Source of the DNA: a virus
Virus record (IMG/VR): IMGVR_UViG_3300021426_000096
DNA length: 64,000 nt
Reading direction: 5' to 3' (one strand)
The notes under the pieces are model-generated. The model did no database searches, was not told where the DNA came from, and saw nothing but the letters and a program-made list of their open reading frames with translations. Below are positions 3,588 through 58,330 of the stretch, one piece after another. Numbering within the stretch: the first letter of the stretch is position 1; each line of letters begins with the position of its first letter. A program made the translations under genes and the position numbers.

Positions 3588-3881
3588 TTAAGTACACTGA
3601 TTTTCTTCATCATATGGATCACTATCTGCATAATCCTCTCCTTTTGGAATTGGGTCTTTAAACCTTTTCTCAAACACACCTATACCCAAGAGAGCAAATG
3701 CACCAATCATCATAGTCATAATTGCTTCACCAAGCCAAACTGCCTGAACATCCCTGAATATACTTATTACAATAACTGTAAGAAGTGTAAGAAGTATCAA
3801 TACACCAAGCACACGCTTTGATGATATACGTCCATTGGCACCAGATAACATCGAGCCCCAAAAACTATTCTTCTTTTTCAT
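3588..3881 (-). CDS. small two-TM membrane protein (holin-like topology, speculative)
   Basis: Minus ORF taken from MKKKNSFWG; the upstream extension in the ORF table overlaps the + promoter. Two hydrophobic helices; only minus-strand gene in the first 45 kb. Confidence 0.4.
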   Translation of the reverse strand: MKKKNSFWGSMLSGANGRISSKRVLGVLILLTLLTVIVISIFRDVQAVWLGEAIMTMMIGAFALLGIGVFEKRFKDPIPKGEDYADSDPYDEENQCT

Positions 3882-3918
3882 ATTGTTATATATTTGTTTG
3901 AAATATTTATGAAAAAAA

Positions 3919-3950: not shown

Positions 3951-3977
3951 TAGTGTCAAATAGAAAGAATAAAGTTA

Positions 3978-4180
3978 TGACGAAAGAAGAAATTTTAAAT
4001 AAAGTAAGAAATATAACAACCACTACAGAAAGAAACAGTATGGGTTGTTCTGAGAACTGGTACAACTGGTTCTATGCTTTAAGGGAGACCTTTGGAATTG
4101 AGAAACTGGAAAAGATGTCAGAAGAGGAGTTGAATGACCTCTTGAAACTGGCAGAAGTATTAGCAGATGCATTTTATTAA
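3978..4180 (+). CDS. hypothetical protein
   Basis: Start set at MTKEEIL downstream of the promoter; the 5' extension in the ORF table runs through the promoter. Confidence 0.45.
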
Positions 4181-9745: not shown

Positions 9746-9790
9746 TTTATGGAGTATCCATAAATACTTATATAATGTATAGTCTCAAAA

Positions 9791-10054
9791 ATGGCTGGTA
9801 ATAATGAATCAATATCTTATATAAATTTAGGTGATGGTAATGAACATCCAATAGATGCTGTAACCATCAATGGTCAATCTCTACCAAATGAATCAGCATT
9901 CTTGCCATCTGTTTCTTCATTGGATAATGGTAAAGTATTAAGAGTGGTTGATGGGGCATGGGTTCTCATTGACCCCTCATTCATTTATTCTGGTGAAGGT
10001 AATCCAGACAACGCCAATGGTAACAATGGTGACTTTTATATAAAAACATCTTAA
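9791..10054 (+). CDS. tail-fibre N-terminal (virion-anchor) domain protein, 87 aa
   Basis: ESISYINLG..DAVTINGQSLPNES..PSVS..DNGKVLRVVDGAWVLIDPS is homologous to the first 70 aa of the giant minus-strand gene product; ends at TAA 10052-10054, in frame with the next ORF. Confidence 0.55.
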   Translation: MAGNNESISYINLGDGNEHPIDAVTINGQSLPNESAFLPSVSSLDNGKVLRVVDGAWVLIDPSFIYSGEGNPDNANGNNGDFYIKTS

Positions 10055-12063: not shown

Positions 12064-12080
12064 GCGATGACGATATACGA
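12064..12080 (+). repeat. RCGA-triplet intergenic motif (GCGA-tg-ACGA-tat-ACGA)
   Basis: After the 12052 stop. Confidence 0.7.
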
Positions 12081-12082
12081 AT

Positions 12083-12116
12083 CACCTGCCCTTTAAGGGT
12101 GGGTGATTTTTTTTTG
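12083..12116 (+). terminator. rho-independent terminator
   Basis: CACCTGCCCtttaaGGGTGGGTG followed by T9. Confidence 0.5.
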
Positions 12117-12135: not shown

Positions 12136-12167
12136 TTTGGAATTGTCATTTTTTTCTTGTATCTTCG
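12136..12167 (+). promoter_or_regulatory. Bacteroidetes-type promoter repeat (variant -7 TATCTTCG)
   Basis: TTTG 12136-12139, TATCTTCG 12160-12167; a 165-nt leader precedes the sigma-factor ATG. Confidence 0.55.
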
Positions 12168-12210
12168 TAGTGGGAAATAAAATTAAAGATTATGTACAAT
12201 ATACTGTAAT

Positions 12211-12252
12211 CCTGTCAGTGACAATTTGTCATAAAACCTGACAACCTGACAA
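12211..12252 (+). promoter_or_regulatory. operator-like cluster in the sigma-factor leader: palindrome TGACAA-T-TTGTCA plus two direct CCTGACAA
   Basis: TGACAATTTGTCA 12220-12232; CCTGACAA at 12237 and 12245. Confidence 0.5.
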
Positions 12253-12331
12253 TGGTATAATTCTTGATAATTTAGTGAAAGAAATCAAGAACCAGGTAGT
12301 ATATATAAGTGTAACAAACAAAACAAAACAT

Positions 12332-13165
12332 ATGATCAACTACACCAACATCAATGAGAACATCAACATCTACTTCAAGGAGATTCGTAAGTTCTCTTCT
12401 CTCACCAGGAAGGATGAGATGATTCTGTTTACCCAGATTTCCAATGGAGACAAGAGGGCAGAGACAGAAGTGTTCAACAAGATGTCCAAGTTAGCAGTCA
12501 ACATTGCCAAGACATATACCTGTAACCCCGAACTCCTGGAGGATCTCATCCAGGAGGCCAATATGGGTATCCTTACTGCCATCAAGAAGTATGATATGGA
12601 TGCAGGTTACAGGTTCTCCTCTTATTCCCGTTGGTGGATGAAGGCATACATTGGTAAGTTCCTGGAAGAGATGGGTATTGTCCATCATTGTAACCCTGTC
12701 ATCATCAAGAAGGCCAACAAGATTCGGGAGCAGTTCTATATGGAAAACCATAGGGACATCTCCGAGTATGAACTGATGGATAAGCTTGAGGAGATGGGTG
12801 AGATTGTCAATGACATCTCCACCATCCTCAACATCACCAGTGTCAGGATTGATATGCCTGTGTCAGAGGATGATGTCATCACCAAGAAGGATATGGGTGT
12901 GTTCGCTGATCGCACCGCATCTACCAATTCCTTTGTGGAAGAGGAAGAGAATGAGACTCTCTCTTCTGACATTGCCAAGAGACTGGTCAAACTCACCCCC
13001 AGGGAGCAGCAGCTCATCCTGATGAAGTTTGGGTTTGTATCTGGATATGAGATGGATTACAAGTCCATTGCTGAAAAGTGGAATGAGGGTAAGTCTGAAA
13101 AGGAACAGCTCACCCAGGAAAGGGTTCGCCAGTTGGTGATTGGTGCTCTCAAAAAAATGAAGTAA
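12332..13165 (+). CDS. sigma-70 family RNA polymerase sigma factor
   Basis: Region 2: DLIQEANMGILTAIKKYD..GYRFSSYSRWWMKAYI (DLIQEGNIGLMKAV.KFD..GYKFSTYATWWIRQAI); region 4: LTPREQQLILMKFG...TQERVRQL. Confidence 0.85.
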   Translation: MINYTNINENINIYFKEIRKFSSLTRKDEMILFTQISNGDKRAETEVFNKMSKLAVNIAKTYTCNPELLEDLIQEANMGILTAIKKYDMDAGYRFSSYSRWWMKAYIGKFLEEMGIVHHCNPVIIKKANKIREQFYMENHRDISEYELMDKLEEMGEIVNDISTILNITSVRIDMPVSEDDVITKKDMGVFADRTASTNSFVEEEENETLSSDIAKRLVKLTPREQQLILMKFGFVSGYEMDYKSIAEKWNEGKSEKEQLTQERVRQLVIGALKKMK

Positions 13166-13342: not shown

Positions 13343-13843
13343 ATGTGTACACACTACATCCCTACTATGCTTCAGCAGAATGAAGAAGCAATCAGATTGA
13401 TCAAAGAGAATAAGACTATGGAGATGAAACCCATCATCTATAGTAATGACCGTAAGAACCTGTATGTTGCCTACAAGAGTGAGTACAAGGGAGTTAAGTA
13501 CTATATTGTTGCCGGCAGTATCCATCCCTGTGCCTATGTTATGTGTGATGAGAAGTTCATCCAGAATCACAAAACTGATTATGGTGGACTGGACTGCATC
13601 TGTGTGCATGGTGGTGTCACCTGGACAGGAGAGGTAGAGAGACTCCTGTGCCATCCTGAAGAGTACTCTGGTATGTGCTTTGGTTGGGATTATGGTCACC
13701 TGGATGACTGGGAGGGTTACTACACTGATGGGCAGAACCATATGTATGGTCATCACAAGTACACCACTATGGAGATTAAGGCAGAGTGTCTGGATGCCAT
13801 TGGTCAGTACCTGGAAGTATTGGAGAAGGATAAGAACAAATAA
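13343..13843 (+). CDS. hypothetical protein
   Basis: 166-aa ORF, His/Cys-rich. Confidence 0.5.
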   Translation: MCTHYIPTMLQQNEEAIRLIKENKTMEMKPIIYSNDRKNLYVAYKSEYKGVKYYIVAGSIHPCAYVMCDEKFIQNHKTDYGGLDCICVHGGVTWTGEVERLLCHPEEYSGMCFGWDYGHLDDWEGYYTDGQNHMYGHHKYTTMEIKAECLDAIGQYLEVLEKDKNK

Positions 13844-21689: not shown

Positions 21690-22066
21690 TGTGTTCATTT
21701 TTTGTGAACAGCCCTAAAAAATTGAACAATATGTGGACTGAAAAAGAAATTAAAGACCTGAGGGGTCAGGCATATGATTTATTTAAGACAGAGATTCCCC
21801 TATCAGGTGAAATTGAAAAGATTCAGGTTTTCATCAACCAGAGTCAATATGGTTTCAGGAAGGCGAGTCCTAAACTGATCAAGACCATCAAGTCTGCCAT
21901 TGAGTGGATACCTAATTACTGGACGTTCCCTATGGAGATTGACATACCTGATTCTGTGATGGACATCATCCGCCAGCAGTGTACTGAAATGATGTATAGC
22001 AAGTGTGATGAACTGGCAACCCTCTGTAATTATCAACCTGACAAAATGGCAGAAGCAGAGGCCTGA
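21686..22066 (+). CDS. hypothetical protein
   Basis: 126-aa ORF; ATGA overlap with the upstream stop. Confidence 0.45.
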   Translation: MMCSFFVNSPKKLNNMWTEKEIKDLRGQAYDLFKTEIPLSGEIEKIQVFINQSQYGFRKASPKLIKTIKSAIEWIPNYWTFPMEIDIPDSVMDIIRQQCTEMMYSKCDELATLCNYQPDKMAEAEA

Positions 22067-22083
22067 CAGAATGACAGATTGTT

Positions 22084-22761
22084 ATGGAAGAGTATAACAC
22101 CAAATATCCCAGAACTTATCATGTTCCCTGGTCACCTGGGGCTACTTCTGATGACAAGAAGCAGCCCGATGACTGGTTCTATGCCTATGGATGGGCAGGG
22201 AGTGAGATAGTGATCACTGAGAAGTTAGATGGTGAGAATACAGCTTTCCAGAATGGAGATGTATACAGTAGGAGTCATGCTGTTCCTACCAGGTCTCCCT
22301 GGTCAAGGAATCTGTGGGACACTGATGGTCTCCTGTGGAAAGTGAAAAGTAAAATCACAGGAGATGAGATCATCTATGGAGAGAATCTCTATGGTGAACA
22401 CAGTATCCATTATGACAAACTGCCGGCATACTTCTTCGCCTTCGCATATCGTAGAGGAAATCATTGGTTTCCCTGGGATGATGTGGTGATGATGAGTGAA
22501 ATCCTGGATGTTCCCACTGTCCCGGTACTGTGGAGAGGGGTGATAGAGACTGAACCTCAACTGAGGAGACTGGCCGCACAGTTTATGGCAGAACCCTCCA
22601 CCTATGGTGACACCAAGGAAGGAGTGGTGATGAGGAAGGTTGAAGGGTTTGACAATGATGATTTCTCCAAGAATGTGGTCAAGTATGTCAGGGAGAATCA
22701 TGTACAGACTGACCAGCATTGGACAAGGAACTGGAAGAGAGCAGAATTGATAATAAAATGA
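22084..22761 (+). CDS. ATP-dependent RNA ligase, Rnl2-like / RNA_ligase family
   Basis: Motif I TEKLDGENTAF (KxDGxN adenylation lysine), motif IV EGVVMRKVEG, motif V NVVKYVREN; order and spacing as in T4 Rnl2. Confidence 0.6.
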   Translation: MEEYNTKYPRTYHVPWSPGATSDDKKQPDDWFYAYGWAGSEIVITEKLDGENTAFQNGDVYSRSHAVPTRSPWSRNLWDTDGLLWKVKSKITGDEIIYGENLYGEHSIHYDKLPAYFFAFAYRRGNHWFPWDDVVMMSEILDVPTVPVLWRGVIETEPQLRRLAAQFMAEPSTYGDTKEGVVMRKVEGFDNDDFSKNVVKYVRENHVQTDQHWTRNWKRAELIIK

Positions 22762-28442: not shown

Positions 28443-28490
28443 AAATCAAATTTCTATAAATACTATATATCCAAGATCTGTAATTAAATT

Positions 28491-29288
28491 ATGATGACTA
28501 TTGAGAATGCCATTAACAGACTGGAAGATATAGTATCAGGCTGTTACAAGAAGAAGTTCCCTAAATCAAAACTCAGAAGGAACACCGAAGAAGCAGTCAA
28601 GCTGATCAGGTTTGACTTTATGACTATGTCCAGGATTAACAATCCAAATGTGAAACTGGAATCCTTTACCAAGATAGTGGACATTGTCCTGGATGACACC
28701 CTGATGGCATCCAACAGTTCCCTGACTTACAAGGAGTACTGTAAGAACAAGGCTGAATCACACACCATCATGAAATACCCTGATGTCATTGATGAGTGTA
28801 TCAATTGTTGTGATGTAATTCAGAAGAGAATCTCTGAAGGAGCAGACATCATCAAGAATGACACAATGTCTGTCCAGAAGTTGTCCAAGAAGTATTACCA
28901 CAAGTACCTTTACTTCAAAGATGATCTTATCGGTTCACAGTATGTGTGGGTCAAGAACATCCACCTTGATGAGGAGGGTCACTTCCAGATTGATGGTGTC
29001 ATGCTTTACACTGATATCCAGAAGAGTATCTTTGGCTTAAAGGAGATAGAGAACTTCCCTGTTGAGGACTTCAATGACTTTGGAGATCCAAAGAATCCCT
29101 TCACCAAGTGTGAATACCTGGATGAAGCACTCAAGCAACCAATTGACAGGAGATTGAAGAGTCATATCGTCACACTTGATGAGGTAGCAGAAGACATATT
29201 GTTTGTCTTCACCTTGTTCAATGATATCCATCTTCCTCCGATGGGTAATCTGTTGAAGAGTATTAGGTCACATCAAAATTATAAGTAA
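28491..29288 (+). CDS. hypothetical protein
   Basis: 265-aa ORF. Confidence 0.5.
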   Translation: MMTIENAINRLEDIVSGCYKKKFPKSKLRRNTEEAVKLIRFDFMTMSRINNPNVKLESFTKIVDIVLDDTLMASNSSLTYKEYCKNKAESHTIMKYPDVIDECINCCDVIQKRISEGADIIKNDTMSVQKLSKKYYHKYLYFKDDLIGSQYVWVKNIHLDEEGHFQIDGVMLYTDIQKSIFGLKEIENFPVEDFNDFGDPKNPFTKCEYLDEALKQPIDRRLKSHIVTLDEVAEDILFVFTLFNDIHLPPMGNLLKSIRSHQNYK

Positions 29289-35481: not shown

Positions 35482-35901
35482 ATGAGACACATCAGTACCA
35501 AGACTTCTGCCCGTTCCCCCAGAGCTAACTCCACCTTCAAGACCAGTGAGTCCAGAGAGACTTACAGGATGGTTGAGGAGATTCTTGACATTCTGACCAA
35601 GCAGGGCTTCAATGGGAAGTACCTCTCCACCAAGACCATTGTCAAGAGTGGTACCAGGAGAGGTTATTGCAGACCTTACTATGATGATGAGCGCATTGCT
35701 TGTGCCCACCCCTACTACAAGATCCTGTCAGAGATGACTGACCCTCAGTCTGTCCACTTTGTGAACAATCTGGAAGAGATTGAGACTGACAATGTGCTGC
35801 GCTATCGTCTTCGCACTGATGTGGTGAGGTCTTCCAAGACTGGCAACTGGAAGAGAGTGAGAGGATGTGAGAAGTTTTATGGACTTCCTGACAACAGGTA
35901 G
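35482..35901 (+). CDS. hypothetical basic protein
   Basis: 139-aa ORF; its stop TAG lies inside the first CTGACAACAGG repeat. Confidence 0.5.
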   Translation: MRHISTKTSARSPRANSTFKTSESRETYRMVEEILDILTKQGFNGKYLSTKTIVKSGTRRGYCRPYYDDERIACAHPYYKILSEMTDPQSVHFVNNLEEIETDNVLRYRLRTDVVRSSKTGNWKRVRGCEKFYGLPDNR

Positions 35902-35990
35902 TCTTTGGACAGTCTGACAACAGGTTGTCTATGGGTTGCCTGACAACAGGTTGTCTATGGGTTGCCTGACAACAGGCAACCCACCTCTCC
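35887..35990 (+). repeat. four tandem 26-bp units, each containing the palindrome GACAAC-NN-GTTGTC
   Basis: CTGACAACAGG at 35887, 35913, 35939, 35965; units 2 and 3 identical (CTGACAACAGGTTGTCTATGGGTTGC). Confidence 0.8.
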
Positions 35991-36715: not shown

Positions 36716-36790
36716 GGTCTCATAGTTCAACGGATAGAACAGCAGTTTCCTAAACTGTAGATCTGGGTTCGATTCCCGGTGAGACTACCA
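36716..36790 (+). tRNA. tRNA-Arg (anticodon CCU), CCA encoded
   Basis: Cloverleaf GGTCTCA/TGAGACT acceptor, GTTC-AACGGATA-GAAC D arm, GCAGT-TTCCTAA-ACTGT anticodon arm (CCT), AGAT variable loop, CTGGG-TTCGATT-CCCGG T arm, discriminator A, then CCA. Confidence 0.8.
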
Positions 36791-45772: not shown

Positions 45773-48700
45773 TTAGTTGTCAGCAAGTCGGACTGTCCAA
45801 TTAACAGGAATACCATTCTCATTAGTTGTCCAACCAGACATACCCGATTTCTTTACAAATGTACCAACAGAAGCAACTCCAGACACCCAACTAGTAGTAC
45901 AGGCGCCTGCAGATACACTTGTTGCAAGACATTTGATGTAATTAAGACTTCTACAATTTTGGAACATATATCTATAACAATATGTTACTAAAGTAGAAGC
46001 AAGGAGATCAGGCGCTGTAGTCAATGTAGTACAACCTTTAAACATACTATAATAACATGCATTAACCAATGTAGTTGCCGGAAGTGCAGGTGCCGTAGTC
46101 AATGCAGTACAACCTTCAAACATGCTACAATAACAGTATTGTTTGAGTGATTTTGCTGGGAGTTCTGGCGCTGTAGTCAATGCAGTACAGCCAGAGAACA
46201 TATAATAATAGCAAAAATCTGTCATAGAGGTTGCTGGAAGAGTTGGTGCTGTAGTCAATGCAGTACAGCCAGAGAACATATATGCATAACAATATTTAGC
46301 TAATGTAGTTACAGAGAGAGTTGGTGCAGTGGTTAAACTAGTACAATTTTGGAACATACAATAATAAGCCTGATATCCAACACTACTTGGCATTATTAAA
46401 TTCTTCGCAGATACCACAGGAGTTCCCTTAAACAAATAAGGTTGAGATTCATTGGTACTGCGATATATTGAAGATAAATTACCACCTACTTCAAAACTGG
46501 CAGTTGTTCCTTGGAATGAACTATATAAATCTACATTGTTATCATATATACCCGCTCCAAACTTGAACTGCACAATGTCTCCAGCAACAACACTGATGGT
46601 GGTTCCATTGTCAGAAGAAACAATATTTGTCCAGGTTCCACCATTTTTAGAATATTTCAATGTTTTTATGCCACCAGAATTATATGGATCTTCTGAAGTA
46701 TTTATACAGTAATACTTCCAAGAGATATTACCATCACTTGTTATCTCAAATGTGAGAGGTTCATTAGAATAATCAACTTCAGCAGTCCATCCAGTTGGGA
46801 TACCACTTGTACCAGTAGTCCATGAGGAACTCAAAACTTTTACAAATGTACCCGTTGCTGCAACTCCATCTACCCAATCTGTTAATCCTGAACTGTAGCT
46901 GAGGTCCGTAGCTGAACACTTAATATAATTCAAATTACTGCATCCCTTGAACATATAAGAATAACAATTACTTGCTAATACAGCAGCAGGAAGTACTGGA
47001 GCTGTTGTTAATCCGGTACAACCATAGAACATGTTACAATAACAGTATTGTTTGAGTGATTTTGCTGGGAGTTCTGGCGCTGTTGTTAATCCGGTGCATC
47101 CGTAGAACATACTTCTATAGCATGCCATAAATAAATTAGTAGCTGGGAGTTCTGGAGCTGTTGTTAACGATGTACAACCTTTAAACATACAATCATAACA
47201 GTATTGATTAAGTGTAGTAGCAGGAAGTTTTGGTGCTTTAGTTAAATTAGTACAACCTTCAAACATATTTTCATAACAACCCCATTTTAGTGATGTTGAT
47301 GGAAGAATAAGATGCTCCGCTGATATTAATCCATCACAATCAACAAACAAACATGCATATTCCAAATTTGATGCATCGGCGGACATAAAATCATCCCCAG
47401 CAGTTAACGACATTATGTTTCCATAAACATCTACTTGGATAGATGACGATTTTATGTAAAAATAATTATAATATGATGTGTTACCACCAACATAATTACC
47501 TTTAACTCTTACTTTATCACCGGTAAGAACATCAATAGAGCCAGCAGCATATTTATTTGGGGTTATTTTCTGCCATTCGCCATTATTTACAGAACAATAT
47601 ATTGGATAAGCAGTTGCACCATTATCATTAATTTTCCATGTGATTCTTCCACCGGATTTAACATCAAATGTAAGATACTGCTGTGTATACTCATATTCAG
47701 TTTCACTATAAACATTCCAGCCTGAAGGAATACCACTTGCCCCAGTTGTCCACGAATCTATATTGTCTGCTTTAACAAATGTGCCTGTTTCTGCTACTCC
47801 ATATACCCATTTACCTGTGCAACTATCAGCAGATATATCTATTGCAAGACATTTGATATAATTAAGGTTAGTACAACCATTGAACATATAATAATAACAA
47901 TATTTTGTCAATGTAGTAGCAGGGAGTTCAGGTGCTGTTGTTAGACTTGTACAATTAGAGAACATATATCCATAACAATAACCTACCAATGTAGTAGCCG
48001 GAAGCTCAGGTGCTGTGGTTAGACTTGTACAATTAGAGAACATATAAAAATAACAACATGTTGCTAATGTAGTAGCAGGAAGAACTGGTGCTGTAGTTAG
48101 ACTAGTACAACCATAGAACATATATTCATAACAATATTTTGTCAATGTAGTAGCAGGAAGAACTGGTGCTGTAGTTAGACTAGTACAACCATAGAACATA
48201 TATTCATAACAATAGTCTGCCAATGTAGTAGCTGAAAGCTCAGGTGCTGTTGTTAGACTTGTACAACCAAAGAACATACTGGAATAACAATAGTCTGCCA
48301 ATGTAGTAGCAGGGAGTTCAGGTGCTGTGGTTAGACTAGTACAGCCATCAAACATAGACCGATAACAATAATCAACTAATGTAGTAGCAGGGAGTTCAGG
48401 TGCTGTGGTTAGACTTGTACAACCAAAGAACATACCGGAATAACAATAACTCACCAATGTAGTAGCAGGGAGTTCAGGTGCTGTGGTTAGACTAGTACAA
48501 CCATTGAACATACCCAAATAACACCCAGTTGCTAATATAGTAGCAGGGAGCGTAGGTGCTGTTGTTAGACTAGTACAACCATTGAACATATACCGATAAC
48601 AATAGTCTGCCAATGTAGTAGCAGGGAGAATAAGGTTTTCTGCTGATAATAATCCAGTACAATTATAGAATAAATATGCAAACGTATAAGATGATGATAA

Positions 48701-50926
48701 TGCAATTAAATTAGAGAAATTATCACCACCAATCAAAGACATTATATTACCATCTGTATCAAATGTGGCTGTTCCGCCAAATGAATTAGTATATCCATAT
48801 GAGTCACGTGTTGAATAAGCTGAGTTATTACCCTTGAATCTCACTTTATCTCCTGTGACAACAGGTATAGATACACCTTCTGTTGTAGATGTTATATCCG
48901 TCCATTCACCATCATTCTTTGAATAAGATATGGTTTTTGCAGTGGCTGAACTGGAATTCATCTTCCAAGTGATATTACCACTTGATTTAATGTTAAATGT
49001 AAGATAATTTAAAGGTATATTAAAGATATCATTAGTACTATTACTAACAACTTTGATTTCATCACCAGGATCAAAACCCCTTGCTGTAAATGTTGCAATA
49101 TTATTTGTCACATTCACAGTCTCAATCTCTGTATTATTGACATAAAGTGTCAATGAATCACCATCATTGGTGTAACACTTGATAACCCTATTTTCATATT
49201 TCTCATAATCCTTTCCACAGATATGTACAAACTTATCTGTCTGGTTCCACCAAGCCTTATAAAGATAGAATGTATCTTTCTTTGTCCTGTGGTCTCTCTC
49301 AATAAGACCCTTGTTATTGAGTCTTCTCAACTCATCATCAGTATATGAGTTCTCACCATCAAGACATACTGTATAACCCTCATTTCTGTTGGACACAGCA
49401 ATATCAAAGAACTGCCATTCACTTGTAAACAACAATTGAGGGAAGTTCTTGATCGCTGCGATATGTCCTTCGTGAAGCCACATCTGGTATTCAATGTCAT
49501 GTCTCTCATGGTTACCCCTTGTTGTGGTAGACATATAGTTTTCAGAGTGGCAGTGTTGTGTACCACCACAACCATATTCAGAATAAGCAATAGGTCTGTC
49601 AGGCACATTGTTAAGACGGGTATTAAGTTGTGATGTTGGGTTATTTGAAGATGTGTTTGAATACCAACCAACATAGATATTACAACCATACCAATCCATA
49701 TCAGCACCACCAACAGTTGACCTTGGATTACTACTACTAGCATTAAGCACACAACCAACCATACGTTCAGTATCATATTCCTTGATGATGTCCCTGAAGT
49801 GTTCAAGTTTAGTACAGGCAAATGCTCCACCATCACTATCCATCTGTGCATTGAACTCATTACCAAGTCCCCAGAACATAATACAAGGGTGGTTATAATG
49901 CTGTGTAACCATATCATAATACTGATCTTCAAGATGGGTATAATAATCTTCCGGTTGTGTTGATTTGATATTATTCACCAATGGGACTTCTGTCTGTACA
50001 ATGATACCCAATCTGTCACACCAATCATATACCTCCTTTGGGTGTGGATAGTGTGCAAGACGGATGAAGTTACAACCAACCTCATTAATCATTGCAAACT
50101 CCTGTGTGTAATCAGCATCATCAAGAGCATTGGCCTTTTCTTCAAGGTCATCATGCATACATACACCCCTCAATAAGTATGGAGAACCATTGAGAAGGAA
50201 TCCTGTGTATGTTTCATTATTAGGAAGAGTATAATTATATACATATGAATAATACCTTATACCATATCCTCTCTGGAATCTATGATAAAGGTCACCATTC
50301 TTATAGATTTCAAGAGTAACATCATAAAGATGAGGATTAATCTTACCATTCCAAAGGGTAGGATTGGTGATAGTAGTAATGAATGACATCTCCTCACCAG
50401 TACTTGGTTTCTCATCATAGTAGTGATAGTTACTGTCATCATCATCAATCTTACATACAACTGTTGCTCCAACAGGAACACTGGTCTTGATAGTAAGTGT
50501 TGCTGCTGCTGAAGACACATTAGTTGCTGTTATATGGAAACCATCATATCCATAAAACATATCAGGCATCACTGGACTGGTTATGACCTTCACCTTACCC
50601 AATGTGGCATTGAAGTTAAAGTCTGCTGAACAAGGGGCAAGGGTGCTCCTGGTTGTATTACACAATATAACCTTTATCTCATTTTCACCTGCATGTACAT
50701 ATTCACTGATATCTGTGAAGAATGCATTATATCCTCCCCAGTGGGTTGTTACCTTTACATTATCAACATAGATATCTGCTGATTGGTCAGCATGCTGAAA
50801 CCACAAATAGGTTGGCTGAACCTTTGGCAGATTGATTGTTGTTGTAAATGTGTAATTACCCTTTGAATAAGATGATGAATGTCCATCAATTCTATTAACT
50901 GAATAAGGTACTGTTATATTACTCAT
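45773..50926 (-). CDS. giant modular protein: N-terminal GH2 glycoside hydrolase + beta-sandwich units + BspA-type LRR arrays (candidate tail fibre / depolymerase)
   Basis: First ATG at 50926 (the track start at 50971 is TTG and overlaps the upstream stop). GH2 acid/base HYNHPCIMFWGLGNE and nucleophile PIAYSEYGCGG; then repeated MF.GCTSLTTAPELPATTL..YCY 26-aa units and NYIKC...GIP.GW caps. Confidence 0.8.
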   Translation of the reverse strand: MSNITVPYSVNRIDGHSSSYSKGNYTFTTTINLPKVQPTYLWFQHADQSADIYVDNVKVTTHWGGYNAFFTDISEYVHAGENEIKVILCNTTRSTLAPCSADFNFNATLGKVKVITSPVMPDMFYGYDGFHITATNVSSAAATLTIKTSVPVGATVVCKIDDDDSNYHYYDEKPSTGEEMSFITTITNPTLWNGKINPHLYDVTLEIYKNGDLYHRFQRGYGIRYYSYVYNYTLPNNETYTGFLLNGSPYLLRGVCMHDDLEEKANALDDADYTQEFAMINEVGCNFIRLAHYPHPKEVYDWCDRLGIIVQTEVPLVNNIKSTQPEDYYTHLEDQYYDMVTQHYNHPCIMFWGLGNEFNAQMDSDGGAFACTKLEHFRDIIKEYDTERMVGCVLNASSSNPRSTVGGADMDWYGCNIYVGWYSNTSSNNPTSQLNTRLNNVPDRPIAYSEYGCGGTQHCHSENYMSTTTRGNHERHDIEYQMWLHEGHIAAIKNFPQLLFTSEWQFFDIAVSNRNEGYTVCLDGENSYTDDELRRLNNKGLIERDHRTKKDTFYLYKAWWNQTDKFVHICGKDYEKYENRVIKCYTNDGDSLTLYVNNTEIETVNVTNNIATFTARGFDPGDEIKVVSNSTNDIFNIPLNYLTFNIKSSGNITWKMNSSSATAKTISYSKNDGEWTDITSTTEGVSIPVVTGDKVRFKGNNSAYSTRDSYGYTNSFGGTATFDTDGNIMSLIGGDNFSNLIALSSSYTFAYLFYNCTGLLSAENLILPATTLADYCYRYMFNGCTSLTTAPTLPATILATGCYLGMFNGCTSLTTAPELPATTLVSYCYSGMFFGCTSLTTAPELPATTLVDYCYRSMFDGCTSLTTAPELPATTLADYCYSSMFFGCTSLTTAPELSATTLADYCYEYMFYGCTSLTTAPVLPATTLTKYCYEYMFYGCTSLTTAPVLPATTLATCCYFYMFSNCTSLTTAPELPATTLVGYCYGYMFSNCTSLTTAPELPATTLTKYCYYYMFNGCTNLNYIKCLAIDISADSCTGKWVYGVAETGTFVKADNIDSWTTGASGIPSGWNVYSETEYEYTQQYLTFDVKSGGRITWKINDNGATAYPIYCSVNNGEWQKITPNKYAAGSIDVLTGDKVRVKGNYVGGNTSYYNYFYIKSSSIQVDVYGNIMSLTAGDDFMSADASNLEYACLFVDCDGLISAEHLILPSTSLKWGCYENMFEGCTNLTKAPKLPATTLNQYCYDCMFKGCTSLTTAPELPATNLFMACYRSMFYGCTGLTTAPELPAKSLKQYCYCNMFYGCTGLTTAPVLPAAVLASNCYSYMFKGCSNLNYIKCSATDLSYSSGLTDWVDGVAATGTFVKVLSSSWTTGTSGIPTGWTAEVDYSNEPLTFEITSDGNISWKYYCINTSEDPYNSGGIKTLKYSKNGGTWTNIVSSDNGTTISVVAGDIVQFKFGAGIYDNNVDLYSSFQGTTASFEVGGNLSSIYRSTNESQPYLFKGTPVVSAKNLIMPSSVGYQAYYCMFQNCTSLTTAPTLSVTTLAKYCYAYMFSGCTALTTAPTLPATSMTDFCYYYMFSGCTALTTAPELPAKSLKQYCYCSMFEGCTALTTAPALPATTLVNACYYSMFKGCTTLTTAPDLLASTLVTYCYRYMFQNCRSLNYIKCLATSVSAGACTTSWVSGVASVGTFVKKSGMSGWTTNENGIPVNWTVRLADN

Positions 50927-50958
50927 ATATATTAATTTTTTTCCTTTATTATATTTAT

Positions 50959-57420
<6,462 letters not shown>

Positions 57421-57508
57421 AACAGTTTATTATTTTTATAAATTATATAAGTTATTTATGGGTTTTAGTAATTTTTGTTATTTTTGTATTAGGATAAAAG
57501 ATTAAATT

Positions 57509-58330
57509 ATGGGTAAGATTTTTAGTAAAGTAGATTATGGTAATGGTTCAAAATATTGGTTCTTCTTTAATAGGGTGATAGCCAAAAAGATGGATACCTG
57601 TTTCTATCTATTGAAGAAACCAAAAGAAGGTGAATATATAGGTGATGATTGGTATGCTGGTTGGCATGACTGGAAGTTTGACATCTCTTATGAAGAGTGT
57701 GGATATGATTCAGGAAATGCTGAATTGAATATTAGTATTCTGGGGTGGCATTCTGTATTCAAACTCCCATGGAAGAGTAAGAGATTTCCTGACGGCGATT
57801 GCGATGCACCAAAGTGGGGTATCGCAATTCATAATGCAACACTCTGGATTTATAAAGGTGGTAATGGAAACTGGGGAGGAGGATCCAAGTGGTGGACCTG
57901 GGACATACCATTCTGGACAAAGATACATGTAAGACATGATGTACAATGTAATGTTGGAGATTATGACAGTGACCCTACACTCATAATGGTACCTTATGAT
58001 AACCTGGAGAGATATGTTGATGATAAATATATTCCTCTTGAACAGAATGAACTGGTCTATAAGTACCACTATGATTACACAGACAAGTATGATGGTAAGG
58101 TCATTCCTTGTACTTTCTGGGTTGAAGAAAGGGAATGGAGACCAAAGTGGTTGACATGGACAGGAAGATGGAAAGAGGTTGACAGATATATTGAGATTGT
58201 TTTCTCTGATGAGGTTGGAAGTAGAAAAGGATCTTGGAAAGGTGGTTGTATTGGATGTAGTTATACACTCAAAGAAGGTGAGACCCCTATGGACTGCATC
58301 AAGAGGATGGAAAAAGAAAGAAGTTTTTAA
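57509..58330 (+). CDS. Trp-rich hypothetical protein
   Basis: 273-aa ORF, diverges from the giant gene. Confidence 0.5.
   Translation: MGKIFSKVDYGNGSKYWFFFNRVIAKKMDTCFYLLKKPKEGEYIGDDWYAGWHDWKFDISYEECGYDSGNAELNISILGWHSVFKLPWKSKRFPDGDCDAPKWGIAIHNATLWIYKGGNGNWGGGSKWWTWDIPFWTKIHVRHDVQCNVGDYDSDPTLIMVPYDNLERYVDDKYIPLEQNELVYKYHYDYTDKYDGKVIPCTFWVEEREWRPKWLTWTGRWKEVDRYIEIVFSDEVGSRKGSWKGGCIGCSYTLKEGETPMDCIKRMEKERSF

What the first reader, a model, noticed from the sequence alone, without database searches (positions are those of the whole stretch)
12136..13165. Phage-encoded sigma-70 family sigma factor with a long operator-bearing leader
The ORF has clear sigma-70 regions 2.1-2.4 and 4.2. Unlike every other gene it is separated from its promoter by about 165 nt containing the TGACAA palindrome cluster. 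This implies regulated or autoregulated expression. A phage sigma factor is the obvious candidate to drive genes that lack the sigma-A-type cassette, such as the giant fibre genes and the 9791 fibre. Both of those are preceded by an ACTTATATAAT element (9766-9776 and the reverse complement of 57442-57452).
Basis: partly seen in the sequence, partly recalled or inferred. Interest (0 to 1): 0.5.

Follow-up and report, generated by a model that had tools for sequence, protein, structure and literature searches.

The report
Huge-phage sigma factor with private promoter
This is a genuine phage sigma factor gene from an uncultivated huge phage with Bacteroidota-type promoters; its "long leader" is a deletion scar that still holds a conserved repeat array and a promoter found only at this gene, and nothing here shows that it switches on the fibre genes.

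Summary
Window 12332-13165 encodes a 277-aa sigma-70 family protein that aligns with primary and stationary-phase sigmas from region 1.2 to 4.2. It lies 164 nt downstream of a Bacteroidota-type sigma-A promoter cassette. The other 16 cassettes with exact core motifs sit 2-46 nt from their start codons.

Comparison with about 30 distinct relatives (55-99% identity) changes the reading in three ways.
- The leader is specific to this lineage. In every other relative the cassette drives one to three intact genes before sigma, and window 12170-12241 is the remnant of one of them.
- The cassette at the head of the sigma operon carries a conserved -7 variant, TATCTTCG/TATATTCG, in about 20 relatives. 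The change is T to C at the near-invariant -6 position.
- A bipartite promoter-like element, TGAAAG-18 nt-TATATATAAGTG, lies 20 nt before the ATG. It is conserved across the family and occurs essentially only at sigma, including once in a 411-kb relative contig.

The TGACA array is non-random and is conserved together with a sigma-54-like GGYAYA-N4-TTG element in about half the family.

ACTTATATAAT is the 3' half of a promoter-like motif whose invariant core is CATAAATA, close to the T4 late promoter. It precedes fibre and baseplate genes and has no -35 element. Whether this sigma reads it is unproven.

This is a new member of a known kind, of moderate interest.

The parts
12079..12109 (+). 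Intrinsic-terminator-like hairpin followed by a T-run, closing the upstream fibre operon
   Evidence: 14-pair stem, 6 GC pairs, then TTTTTTGCAC
12136..12167 (+). Bacteroidota sigma-A-type promoter cassette: -33 TTTG at 12136-12139 and the -7 variant TATCTTCG at 12160-12167 (C instead of the near-invariant T at -6)
   Evidence: The TTCG variant heads the sigma operon in the window and about 20 distinct relatives, against 57 distinct canonical TTTG cassettes for other genes. The near-invariance of T-6 is from PMC6847099.
12170..12241 (+). Remnant of the 3' end of a small ORF (orfX) that is intact in relatives. It reads VGNKIKDYVQYTVILSVTICHKT* and is probably non-coding here.
   Evidence: Direct reading of the sequence set against the orfX C-termini listed (...KDYKKVLFMAQVYVRLMTNRQK*...YVFMLSKCHK*). 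No alignment score was computed. DNA similarity to an ORF inside L005. In the 98%-identical relatives TGA is CGA, which fuses this stretch in frame to sigma in gene calls.
12213..12252 (.). TGACA/TGTCA half-site array: TGTCA, the palindrome TGACAATTTGTCA, and CCTGACAA twice
   Evidence: CTGACA is about 10 times enriched in the 150 nt upstream of sigma across 30 distinct relatives. The palindrome-plus-direct-repeat layout recurs in relatives.
12254..12266 (+). GGTATAATTCTTG, matching GG[CT][AG][CT]A-N4-TTG. It resembles a sigma-54 -24/-12 element but has A in place of the -12 C.
   Evidence: Present in 16 of 30 distinct relatives upstream of sigma, about 70 times background, and co-occurring with the CTGACA repeats
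12276..12311 (+). Bipartite promoter-like element private to sigma: -35-like TGAAAG (12276-12281), 18-nt spacer, -10-like TATATATAAGTG (12300-12311)
   Evidence: TGAAA[GC] lies exactly 18 nt upstream in 14 of 23 aligned relatives, and the spacer sequence is not conserved. It is the only hit in the window (27.2 bits; next best 13.2). Its exact form occurs once in a 411-kb relative contig.
12312..12331 (+). A/C-rich 20-nt stretch (GTAACAAACAAAACAAAACAT) between the proximal element and the ATG; the predicted short 5' UTR if the proximal element fires
   Evidence: inference from the spacing
12332..13165 (+). Sigma-70 family sigma factor, 277 aa, regions 1.2-4.2, no region 1.1, with an 8-aa insertion in the turn of the region 4.2 helix-turn-helix
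13167..13340 (+). 57-aa protein with two CxxC pairs, starting 1 nt after the sigma stop codon; found only in close relatives
   Evidence: no family hit
13343..13843 (+). 166-aa protein (phrog_2164, function unknown) that lies just downstream of sigma in most relatives that extend that far
9758..9776 (+). Late-type promoter-like motif CCATAAATACTTATATAAT, 14 nt before the 87-aa fibre-module gene
57442..57461 (-). Late-type promoter-like motif CCATAAATAACTTATATAAT, 21 nt before the 2153-aa gene
28455..28470 (+). Weaker copy of the late-type motif, TATAAATACTATATAT, 20 nt before gene 28491-29288
3904..3911 (-). CATAAATA about 22 nt before the minus-strand 97-aa ORF 3588-3881, which looks hydrophobic

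Best explanation
Window 12332-13165 encodes a phage sigma factor. It has the same domain layout as a Bacteroidota primary sigma (regions 1.2 to 4.2, no region 1.1) but is only about 28% identical to one. It belongs to a large family seen in uncultivated gut and rumen phage contigs of up to 344-411 kb.

Proposed expression in two tiers:
- Tier 1. A host sigma-A-type early promoter carries a conserved T-to-C change at the near-invariant -6 position (TATCTTCG). This is inferred to make it weak and to give a low early level of sigma by read-through of the operon.
- Tier 2. A conserved bipartite element (TGAAAG, 18 nt, TATATATAAGTG) lies 20 nt before the ATG, occurs essentially only at this gene, and does not look like a host sigma-A promoter. 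It then raises expression. The most economical reading is positive autoregulation by the phage sigma itself (inferred).

Between the two tiers lie a TGACA half-site array and a GGYAYA-N4-TTG element. They are conserved together in about half of the family and most likely bind an unknown regulator (inferred).

The 164-nt leader exists only because this lineage lost the small ORFs that separate the cassette from sigma elsewhere.

Shown here: the protein's family and architecture, the conservation and near-exclusive placement of each DNA element, and the deletion origin of the leader. Inferred: which polymerase form reads each element, the direction of regulation, and the regulon.
For: Family and architecture:
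- Pfam, NCBIfam and PHROG hits.
- Full-length profile match to SigA/RpoD/RpoS structures at 4e-38.
- Foldseek top hits are SigA and sigma-S holoenzyme chains aligned over about 275 columns.
- End-to-end alignment with a 285-aa Paludibacteraceae sigma at 28% identity.

Phage setting and host type:
- 17 cassette hits scoring 29 bits or more (16 with exact TTTG-N17-23-TAnnTTTG core motifs), plus two weak hits, all on the + strand and none on the minus strand.
- Relatives lie on contigs of 344,746 and 411,604 bp.
- No family member above 31% identity was found in a pattern-based scan of one genome for each of 185,579 species.

Tier 1:
- The TTCG/TATATTCG cassette lies 330-900 nt upstream of sigma in about 20 distinct relatives, against 57 distinct canonical TTTG cassettes elsewhere.
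- T-6 is nearly invariant among 241 Flavobacterium promoters (PMC6847099).

Tier 2:
- Fixed 18-nt spacing with a spacer that is not conserved.
- Unique in the 64-kb window.
- In 270 kb of relatives' DNA it occurs at sigma in about 22 relatives and at only one other gene.
- The exact form occurs once in the 411-kb contig, at sigma.

Leader as a deletion scar:
- Every other relative has one to three intact genes (62-255 aa) between the cassette and sigma. The window lineage has none.
- The remnant reads like the C-terminus of orfX (direct reading).

Array:
- Five half-sites in 40 nt, reached by 0 of 200 simulations.
- About 10-fold enrichment across relatives.
- Co-occurrence with GGYAYA-N4-TTG: 13 relatives have both, 11 have neither, 6 are discordant.
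Against: - There are no transcript or binding data.
- The bipartite element has no other copies, so it defines no regulon. It could equally be read by a host alternative sigma or by another phage factor.
- Its -10 part is conserved over 12-14 nt, more than a plain -10 hexamer needs, so it may also be a protein binding site.
- Eight relatives (for example L001, L028, L029, L012, L014) lack the bipartite element and have only GGYAYA-N4-TTG next to sigma. Autoregulation through TGAAAG/TATAAT therefore cannot be universal in the family.
- The residues at the positions that read -12 in E. coli sigma-70 (Q437, T440) are A and G here, so a canonical TATAAT specificity cannot be assumed.
- That TATCTTCG weakens the promoter is inferred from consensus statistics, not measured.
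- Part of the palindrome's conservation may reflect the coding of orfX's C-terminus.
Confidence: 0.5

Rival explanations
1. Sigma is made from the sigma-A cassette through an operator-bearing leader. It is the late factor that transcribes the fibre and other structural genes from the ACTTATATAAT-type element.
For: - The motif is real and is not of the sigma-A type.
- Its core, CATAAATA, is invariant 27-37 nt before orthologs of the 87-aa gene in five further relatives and before the giant gene of L005.
- The full 18-mer precedes a baseplate wedge gene (phrog_219, 4.7e-32) on the 411-kb contig that also carries a sigma ortholog.
- Sigma is the only recognisable transcription factor in the 64-kb window.
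- The motif ends in TATAAT.
Against: - The motif has no conserved -35-like element, although this sigma keeps an intact region 4.2.
- It differs from the promoter conserved at the sigma gene itself.
- Its invariant part matches the T4 late promoter TATAAATA at 7 of 8 positions.
- The two window copies sit before paralogous 5' gene ends (56% identity over 61 aa).
- The leader is a deletion remnant.
Confidence: 0.25
2. Late genes use a T4-like system: a minimal gp55-type sigma plus a gp33-type co-factor, encoded outside this window, reads CATAAATA. The RpoD-like sigma studied here is then a middle-phase or accessory factor with a small regulon, or one that acts on host genes.
For: - Iyer et al. 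2021 (PMC7824862) report that group-2 jumbo phages encode both a minimal and an RpoD-like sigma, plus a gp33 ortholog. That group has gp23-type capsids and includes the Prevotella Lak megaphage and Tenacibaculum PTM1.
- CATAAATA against the T4 late promoter TATAAATA (the T4 consensus is from my own knowledge).
- No -35 element at these promoters.
- T4-like baseplate wedge genes on the relative contig.
Against: No gp55- or gp33-like gene was seen, but only 64 kb plus short flanks of relatives could be read. That this phage belongs to the group-2 jumbo phages is inferred, not shown.
Confidence: 0.4
3. The GGYAYA-N4-TTG element is a host sigma-54 (RpoN) promoter, and the TGACA repeats are its enhancer-binding or repressor sites. 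The phage sigma gene would then be tied to a host signalling pathway.
For: - The GG-to-TTG spacing is strictly fixed while the intervening bases vary.
- Exact TGGCAC-N5-TTG occurs in L010, L028 and L029.
- The element is about 70 times enriched upstream of sigma and co-occurs with the repeats.
- In L012, L014 and L015 it lies 46-47 nt before the ATG, which is the right distance for a promoter. In eight relatives it is the only promoter-like element next to sigma.
Against: - The -12 C that defines sigma-54 promoters is present in only 2 of 16 relatives (TTGC), and the window has TTGA.
- The repeats lie only 5-50 nt upstream of the GG, much closer than usual enhancer sites.
- No enhancer-binding protein is encoded in the window.
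- A literature search for the sigma-54 consensus in Bacteroides found nothing.
Confidence: 0.2
4. The TGACA/CTGACA repeats act at the RNA or translation level, or are only coding remnants. They could be multi-frame TGA stops and restart spacers between cistrons, or processing sites, rather than an operator on DNA.
For: - CTGACA repeats fill short gaps just before ATGs of other genes (L020:4657, L021:4448). At window 22038-22068 they lie 15-45 nt upstream of the 22084 start codon, and one copy contains the stop codon of the upstream gene.
- Copies 8 nt apart place TGA in different reading frames.
- In relatives the palindrome encodes the last residues of orfX.
Against: - Inverted half-sites at fixed spacing (TGACAAAnnGTCA; CTGAC-N5-GTCAG) are typical of sites for dimeric DNA-binding proteins.
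- The array persists in the window although the ORF is gone.
- The leader RNA is not significantly structured (z = -1.71; 14 of 200 shuffles fold as well).
- No Rfam family matches.
Confidence: 0.2

Closest known systems
RpoD-like 'complete' sigma factors of group-2 jumbo phages (Iyer et al. 2021, PMC7824862); sigma-70 genes noted in Lak megaphages and other huge phages (PMC6784885, PMC7162821)
   Same: A phage-encoded sigma with all the regions of a cellular sigma, in very large phages that have no RNA polymerase of their own. Those phages include ones with Bacteroidota hosts.
   Different: The published reports are annotation-level only. This family has no region 1.1, carries a variable insertion (0-28 aa) in the region 4.2 turn, and is no more than 31% identical to any sigma found in the genome scan. 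Its promoter architecture has not been described.
Bacillus phage SPO1 sigma cascade (gp28, then gp33/gp34)
   Same: The phage sigma gene is expressed first from a host sigma-A promoter and then redirects host core polymerase. The paradigm is from my own knowledge and from the abstract of PMC13401047.
   Different: The SPO1 sigmas are small and highly diverged, and their middle and late promoters are known. Here the sigma is RpoD-like, its regulon is unknown, and the gene carries an additional private promoter.
T4 late transcription (gp55 with gp33 and the sliding clamp; promoter TATAAATA)
   Same: The fibre and baseplate genes here carry CATAAATA with no -35 element, about 30 nt before the ATG.
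   Different: This ORF is not a gp55-type protein, because it has regions 3 and 4. No gp55 or gp33 gene was seen in the DNA available.
Positively autoregulated alternative sigmas of bacteria (for example ECF sigmas such as sigma-E or sigma-W)
   Same: A promoter that occurs at the sigma gene itself and differs from the housekeeping type. The -35-like TGAAAC/TGAAAG resembles ECF -35 motifs (from my own knowledge).
   Different: The protein has group 1/2 architecture rather than group 4. The -10-like element is TATAAT-like. No anti-sigma factor was identified.
Bacteroidota primary sigma (sigma-ABfr) and its TTTG/TAnnTTTG promoters (PMC6847099)
   Same: Same length and domain layout (285 against 277 aa, no region 1.1). 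The early cassette upstream is of this promoter type.
   Different: Only 28% identical. It has an 8-aa insertion in the region 4.2 turn and differs in regions 2.3-2.4. The cassette at the sigma operon breaks the consensus at T-6.

Membership tests
Sigma-70 family | Region 2 (core binding, -10 recognition and DNA melting) | tested here: met
   Pfam Sigma70_r2 at 49.4 bits against a cutoff of 24. DLIQEAN.G and RFSSY..WW are conserved across the family.
Sigma-70 family | Region 4 helix-turn-helix | tested here: met
   Pfam Sigma70_r4 at 24.4 bits against a cutoff of 24.1. The recognition helix LTQERVRQ aligns with TRERIRQ of SigA. There is an 8-aa insertion in the turn.
Sigma-70 family | Region 3 between regions 2 and 4 | tested here: inconclusive
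   No Pfam r3 hit. The profile alignment to SigA runs continuously across it, and the model has helices at 122-166 with moderate to low confidence.
Sigma-70 family | Binds core RNA polymerase and directs promoter-specific initiation | not testable with these tools
   Needs biochemistry.
Group 1 / RpoD or RpoS equivalogs | Score above the curated equivalog cutoff; region 1.1 in most group 1 sigmas | tested here: not met
   Best NCBIfam scores are 116 bits (RpoS, cutoff 378.7) and 110 bits (RpoD, cutoff 572). The protein starts at region 1.2.
T4 gp55-type minimal late sigma | A single region-2-like module with no region 4 | tested here: not met
   Region 4 is present and the protein aligns over its full length with SigA.
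Bacteroidota sigma-A promoter (for element 12136-12167) | -33 TTTG and -7 TAnnTTTG about 20 nt apart | tested here: inconclusive
   TTTG and the spacing are met. The -7 element is TATCTTCG, with C at the near-invariant T-6. The variant is conserved, so it is a deliberate departure.
Sigma-54 promoter (for element 12254-12266) | GG at -24 and GC at -12 with fixed spacing | tested here: not met
   GG and the spacing are met. The -12 C is absent in the window (TTGA) and in 14 of 16 relatives.
Sigma-54 promoter (for element 12254-12266) | Dependence on an enhancer-binding ATPase | not testable with these tools
   No such protein is encoded in the window. The host is unknown.
T4-type late promoter (for 9758-9776 and 57442-57461) | TATAAATA about 30 nt before the ATG with no -35 element | tested here: inconclusive
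   CATAAATA matches 7 of 8 positions and is invariant in orthologous positions. No sequence upstream of it is conserved. The reading factor is unknown.

The most novel reading that the evidence does not exclude
The phage installs an orthogonal transcription switch in a Bacteroidota host. A deliberately weakened early promoter (T-6 to C) seeds a sigma whose specificity (TGAAAG, 18 nt, TATAAT-like) the host sigma-ABfr cannot read. The sigma then locks itself on through a promoter used nowhere else in a genome of about 400 kb. The TGACA array and the sigma-54-like element act as an input for host or phage signals. The variable insertion in the region 4.2 turn would underlie the unusual -35 element and the 18-nt spacing.
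Probability: 0.3. Interest if true: 0.6.

Novelty: new member of a known kind. Interest (0 to 1): 0.4.

Why it matters
Huge phages of gut and rumen Bacteroidota are uncultivated, and their gene-expression programme is unknown. This locus yields three sequence-defined promoter classes:
- the host-type cassette;
- a CATAAATA late-type motif;
- a bipartite element found only at the sigma gene.

It also shows a conserved departure from consensus in the early promoter of the sigma operon.

Together these make the temporal programme testable with metatranscriptomes or in vitro transcription. If the sigma reads a promoter type the host cannot read, it would also be a ready-made orthogonal expression part for Bacteroides engineering.

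Tried and rejected
- Near-identical phages in GenBank: none found. Protein-level hits there are at most 29% identical.
- The TGGTATAAT at 12253-12261 as an extended -10 promoter: rejected. Relatives have TGGCAT or GGTACA at this position, and the conserved feature is GG-N10-TTG.
- CTGACA as a -35 element: rejected. Its distance to the AT-rich hexamer varies from 12 to 27 nt among relatives.
- A structured leader RNA or riboswitch: not supported. Fold z = -1.71 and no Rfam match.
- Covariation between the -35 variant (TGAAAG or TGAAAC) and region 4.2 residues: the recognition helix is too invariant to test this.
- Collection-wide scans for the late motif and for two exact forms of the bipartite element: mostly chance hits in unrelated AT-rich phages. 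Only L090 and L110, and later the contig-specific scan, were informative.
- The conserved downstream gene (13343-13843) as an anti-sigma factor or co-factor: no Pfam hit. The model is confident (pLDDT 84) but has no PDB fold match (E above 0.3). Its invariant His and Asp residues look enzyme-like, so this question stays open.
- Other transcription factors in the window: none found by Pfam or PHROGs in about 95 proteins.
- Host identification from bacterial genomes: no family member was found in the genome collection. Bacteroidota is inferred only from the promoter type.
Full report
**What is there**

The window has 39% G+C. It carries a promoter cassette, AAAAAAGTG.AAAAAAA-TTTGG...-N-TTG-TATCTTTG-TA, with 17 hits scoring 29 bits or more plus two weak ones, always on the + strand. 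Sixteen of them have exact TTTG-N17-23-TAnnTTTG cores. This is the -33 TTTG / -7 TAnnTTTG promoter of the Bacteroidota primary sigma factor (PMC6847099), so the host is inferred to be a member of that phylum.

The finding's start coordinate, 12136, is the TTTG of one such cassette (12136-12167). The ORF listed as 12275-13165 really starts at ATG 12332, because all 25 aligned homologs begin M(I)NYTN. The -7 element therefore ends 164 nt before the ATG. For the 16 exact cassettes the distance is 2-46 nt.

Between the cassette and the ATG lie TGTCA (12213), the palindrome TGACAATTTGTCA (12219-12231) and CCTGACAA twice (12237-12252). Five half-sites within 40 nt is unique in the window, and 0 of 200 simulations reached that number.

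ACTTATATAAT occurs once on each strand, at 9766 (+) and 57452 (-), and both copies lie just upstream of genes that lack a cassette.

**The protein**

- Pfam finds region 2 (49.4 bits) and region 4 (24.4 bits, just above its cutoff), with a weak region 1.2 hit.
- NCBIfam RpoS and RpoD models align over the full length but score far below their equivalog cutoffs. PHROG 351, annotated as RNA polymerase sigma factor, matches at 5e-37.
- A profile of 26 family members matches solved SigA, RpoD and RpoS chains from region 1.2 to region 4.2 (4e-38).
- An AlphaFold model (pLDDT 71) retrieves SigA and sigma-S chains from holoenzyme structures as its top hits, aligned over about 275 columns.
- The protein aligns end to end with a 285-aa Bacteroidota primary-type sigma from a Paludibacteraceae genome at 28% identity. 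Like that sigma it lacks region 1.1.
- One family peculiarity is an insertion in the turn of the region 4.2 helix-turn-helix. It is 8 aa here and ranges from 0 to 28 aa among relatives.
- The family is large: 3016 hits in the protein search, with the closest 120 all of this type. Members occur on metagenomic contigs of up to 344,746 and 411,604 bp.
- No member above 31% identity turned up in a pattern-based scan of one genome for each of 185,579 bacterial and archaeal species.
- It is the only recognisable transcription protein among about 100 window proteins.

**The leader is a deletion scar**

In every relative outside the window's own 98-99% lineage, the cassette upstream of sigma drives at least one intact ORF before sigma. 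These include:
- a very conserved 67-aa protein;
- a 62-64-aa protein, called orfX here;
- a 66-aa protein;
- a protein of about 250 aa.

The cassette-to-sigma distance in those relatives is 300-883 nt. The window lineage has no ORF of 25 aa or more in its 164 nt.

Window 12170-12241 reads VGNKIKDYVQYTVILSVTICHKT*. By direct reading this resembles the C-termini of orfX (...KDYKKVLFMAQVYVRLMTNRQK*...YVFMLSKCHK*), and the DNA aligns with the inside of an ORF in L005. No alignment score was computed for the peptide comparison.

The palindrome corresponds to the last codons of that ORF. In the 98% relatives a TGA-to-CGA change fuses the remnant in frame to sigma, which explains the 331-aa gene call. 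A 61%-identical copy of the 67-aa gene survives elsewhere in the window, at 3977-4180.

**Conserved signals**

*1. The cassette variant.* The cassette at the head of the sigma operon has TATCTTCG or TATATTCG instead of TATCTTTG in the window and about 20 distinct relatives. There are 57 distinct canonical cassettes in front of other genes. The changed base is T-6, one of six nearly invariant positions in 241 mapped Flavobacterium promoters. A conserved departure at an invariant position suggests a deliberately weak or specially timed promoter. This is an inference.

*2. The bipartite element.* Twenty nt before the ATG lies TGAAAG (12276-12281), an 18-nt spacer, and TATATATAAGTG (12300-12311).
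- Across relatives, TGAAA[GC] sits exactly 18 nt upstream of TATAWW in 14 of 23 aligned sequences. Five more have one mismatch.
- The spacer sequence is free. Conserved hexamers at fixed distance with a free spacer are the signature of a bipartite promoter rather than an RNA element.
- A position-weight scan finds it only at sigma in the window (27.2 bits; next best 13.2, which is noise level).
- In 270 kb of relatives' DNA it occurs at sigma in about 22 relatives and at only one other gene, a homolog of window gene 15159, in two relatives.
- The exact form TGAAA-N18-GTATTATATAG occurs once in the whole 411,604-bp contig, at its sigma gene.

*3. The repeat array and the sigma-54-like element.*
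- CTGACA is about 10 times enriched in the 150 nt upstream of sigma across 30 distinct relatives.
- It co-occurs with GG[CT][AG][CT]A-N4-TTG, which is present in 16 of 30 relatives at about 70 times background. Thirteen relatives have both features, 11 have neither and 6 are discordant.
- This second element looks like a sigma-54 -24/-12 promoter, and three relatives have exact TGGCAC-N5-TTG. However, the defining -12 C is missing in 14 of 16.
- In eight relatives this is the only promoter-like element next to sigma.

**Most likely mechanism**

Sigma is seeded at a low level by read-through from the weakened early cassette. It is then boosted from its own dedicated promoter, most simply by the phage sigma itself. 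The TGACA array and the GGYAYA element would form a regulator-binding module between the two.

The placement and conservation of these elements are shown. Which polymerase form reads each element is inferred. Against the autoregulation reading:
- the element defines no regulon;
- some relatives lack it;
- the residues at the E. coli -12-reading positions (Q437, T440) are A and G here.

**The fibre-gene motif**

In orthologous positions in five further relatives only CATAAATA is invariant, 27-37 nt before the ATG. L005 has CCATAAATAACTATATAAT before its giant gene.

The full 18-mer precedes a baseplate wedge gene (phrog_219, 4.7e-32; a gp25-like gene lies next to it) on the same 411-kb contig that carries a sigma ortholog, and also on a 248-kb contig. 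Weaker copies precede window gene 28491 and the minus-strand ORF 3588-3881. It is therefore a real promoter-like class for structural genes.

Three points weaken the link to this sigma:
- The motif has no conserved -35-like partner and does not resemble sigma's own promoter.
- Its core matches the T4 late promoter TATAAATA at 7 of 8 positions.
- The two window copies sit before paralogous 5' ends. The 87-aa protein is 56% identical to residues 6-65 of the 2153-aa protein.

Iyer et al. (PMC7824862) report that group-2 jumbo phages, which include Bacteroidota phages, carry both a minimal gp55-like sigma and an RpoD-like one, plus gp33. A gp55-type reader encoded outside this window is therefore at least as likely as this sigma.

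**Comparison with known systems and verdict**

Phage-encoded sigma-70 family factors are well known. Examples are SPO1, T4 and phiEco32, and sigma genes are annotated in Lak and other huge phages. This is a new member of that kind.

New at the level of detail are:
- the conserved T-6C early cassette;
- the promoter found only at sigma;
- the TGACA/GGYAYA module;
- the CATAAATA class in these phages;
- the variable insertion in the region 4.2 turn.

None of these is demonstrated functionally. Interest is moderate, at 0.4.

Noticed in passing
window 3534, 4472, 6546, 12064, 15039, 16017, 20186, 24795, 30354, 31852, 34682, 35121, 36253, 38984, 40596 (+ strand): A 17-nt motif, RCGA-N2-3-RCGA-N2-4-RCGR (for example GCGATGACGATATACGA). 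There are 15 copies on the + strand, 2 on the minus strand, and 0.7 expected in shuffles. Most lie just after a stop codon and before a terminator or promoter cassette. Function unknown.
   Followed up: partly
window 25192, 30383, 31873, 33642, 35141, 35996, 36018, 39004 (+ strand): CTGAAAT(T/C)CACTG occurs eight times, all on the + strand. Most copies lie 25-35 nt upstream of a sigma-A cassette, so it may be a regulator site for a subset of early promoters.
   Followed up: no
window 35888-35990: Four tandem copies, period 26 nt, of CCTGACAACAGGTTGTCTATGGGTTG. Each contains the CTGACAA motif and an inverted repeat, GACAAC/GTTGTC. They lie between two ORFs with no cassette.
   Followed up: no
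window 22038-22068; L020:4657-4683; L021:4448-4474; L039:350-471: CTGACA repeats also lie in the stretch just upstream of other start codons, for example before the RNA-ligase-like gene at 22084. One copy supplies the stop codon of the upstream gene.
   Followed up: partly
window 13343-13843: A 166-aa protein (phrog_2164) lies just downstream of sigma in most relatives, often as two paralogs. It has invariant H61, H89, D116, H119 and D122. The AlphaFold model is confident (pLDDT 84) but has no PDB fold match.
   Followed up: partly
window 3977-4180; L005:9297-9500: A 67-aa protein (MTKEEI...NSMGCSENWYN...) is the first gene of the sigma operon in most relatives and is more conserved than sigma. 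The window has only a 61%-identical copy 8 kb away, under a canonical cassette. No family hit.
   Followed up: partly
window 9791-10054 and 57226-57405 (- strand, residues 6-65 of the 2153-aa protein): The 87-aa protein is 56% identical to the N-terminus of the giant protein. This is a shared N-terminal module, as expected for alternative fibres that attach at the same site.
   Followed up: partly
window 45773-57420 (- strand): The two giant proteins carry glycoside hydrolase family 2, BspA-type leucine-rich repeat, Fn3-associated and chitobiase C-terminal domains. They look like enzyme-bearing fibres or adhesins rather than plain fibres.
   Followed up: partly
window 57509-58330: Homolog of the CBASS inhibitor Acb3 (Pfam PF25187, 1e-34). 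It is divergently placed from the giant gene.
   Followed up: no
window 36716-36787: A tRNA gene (Rfam, 66 bits).
   Followed up: no
window, among the ORFs between 67 and 32365 (exact positions not resolved except RNA ligase, about 22084-22761): An RNA-repair-like gene set (Thg1-type tRNA-His guanylyltransferase, RNA ligase, HD domain). The same stretch also has NADAR, an FKBP isomerase, a formate/nitrite transporter and two WYL_2 proteins.
   Followed up: no
L001:2880-2960; L040:2360-2440: In the subfamily represented by L001 and L040, a long hairpin (GGTGTGG...CCACACC) is inserted in the 5' untranslated region of sigma. No Rfam match.
   Followed up: partly
window 3588-3881 (- strand): A 97-aa ORF, hydrophobic by eye, lies on the minus strand amid + strand genes and has CATAAATA about 22 nt before its ATG. 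It may be a late gene, for example a holin-like protein.
   Followed up: no
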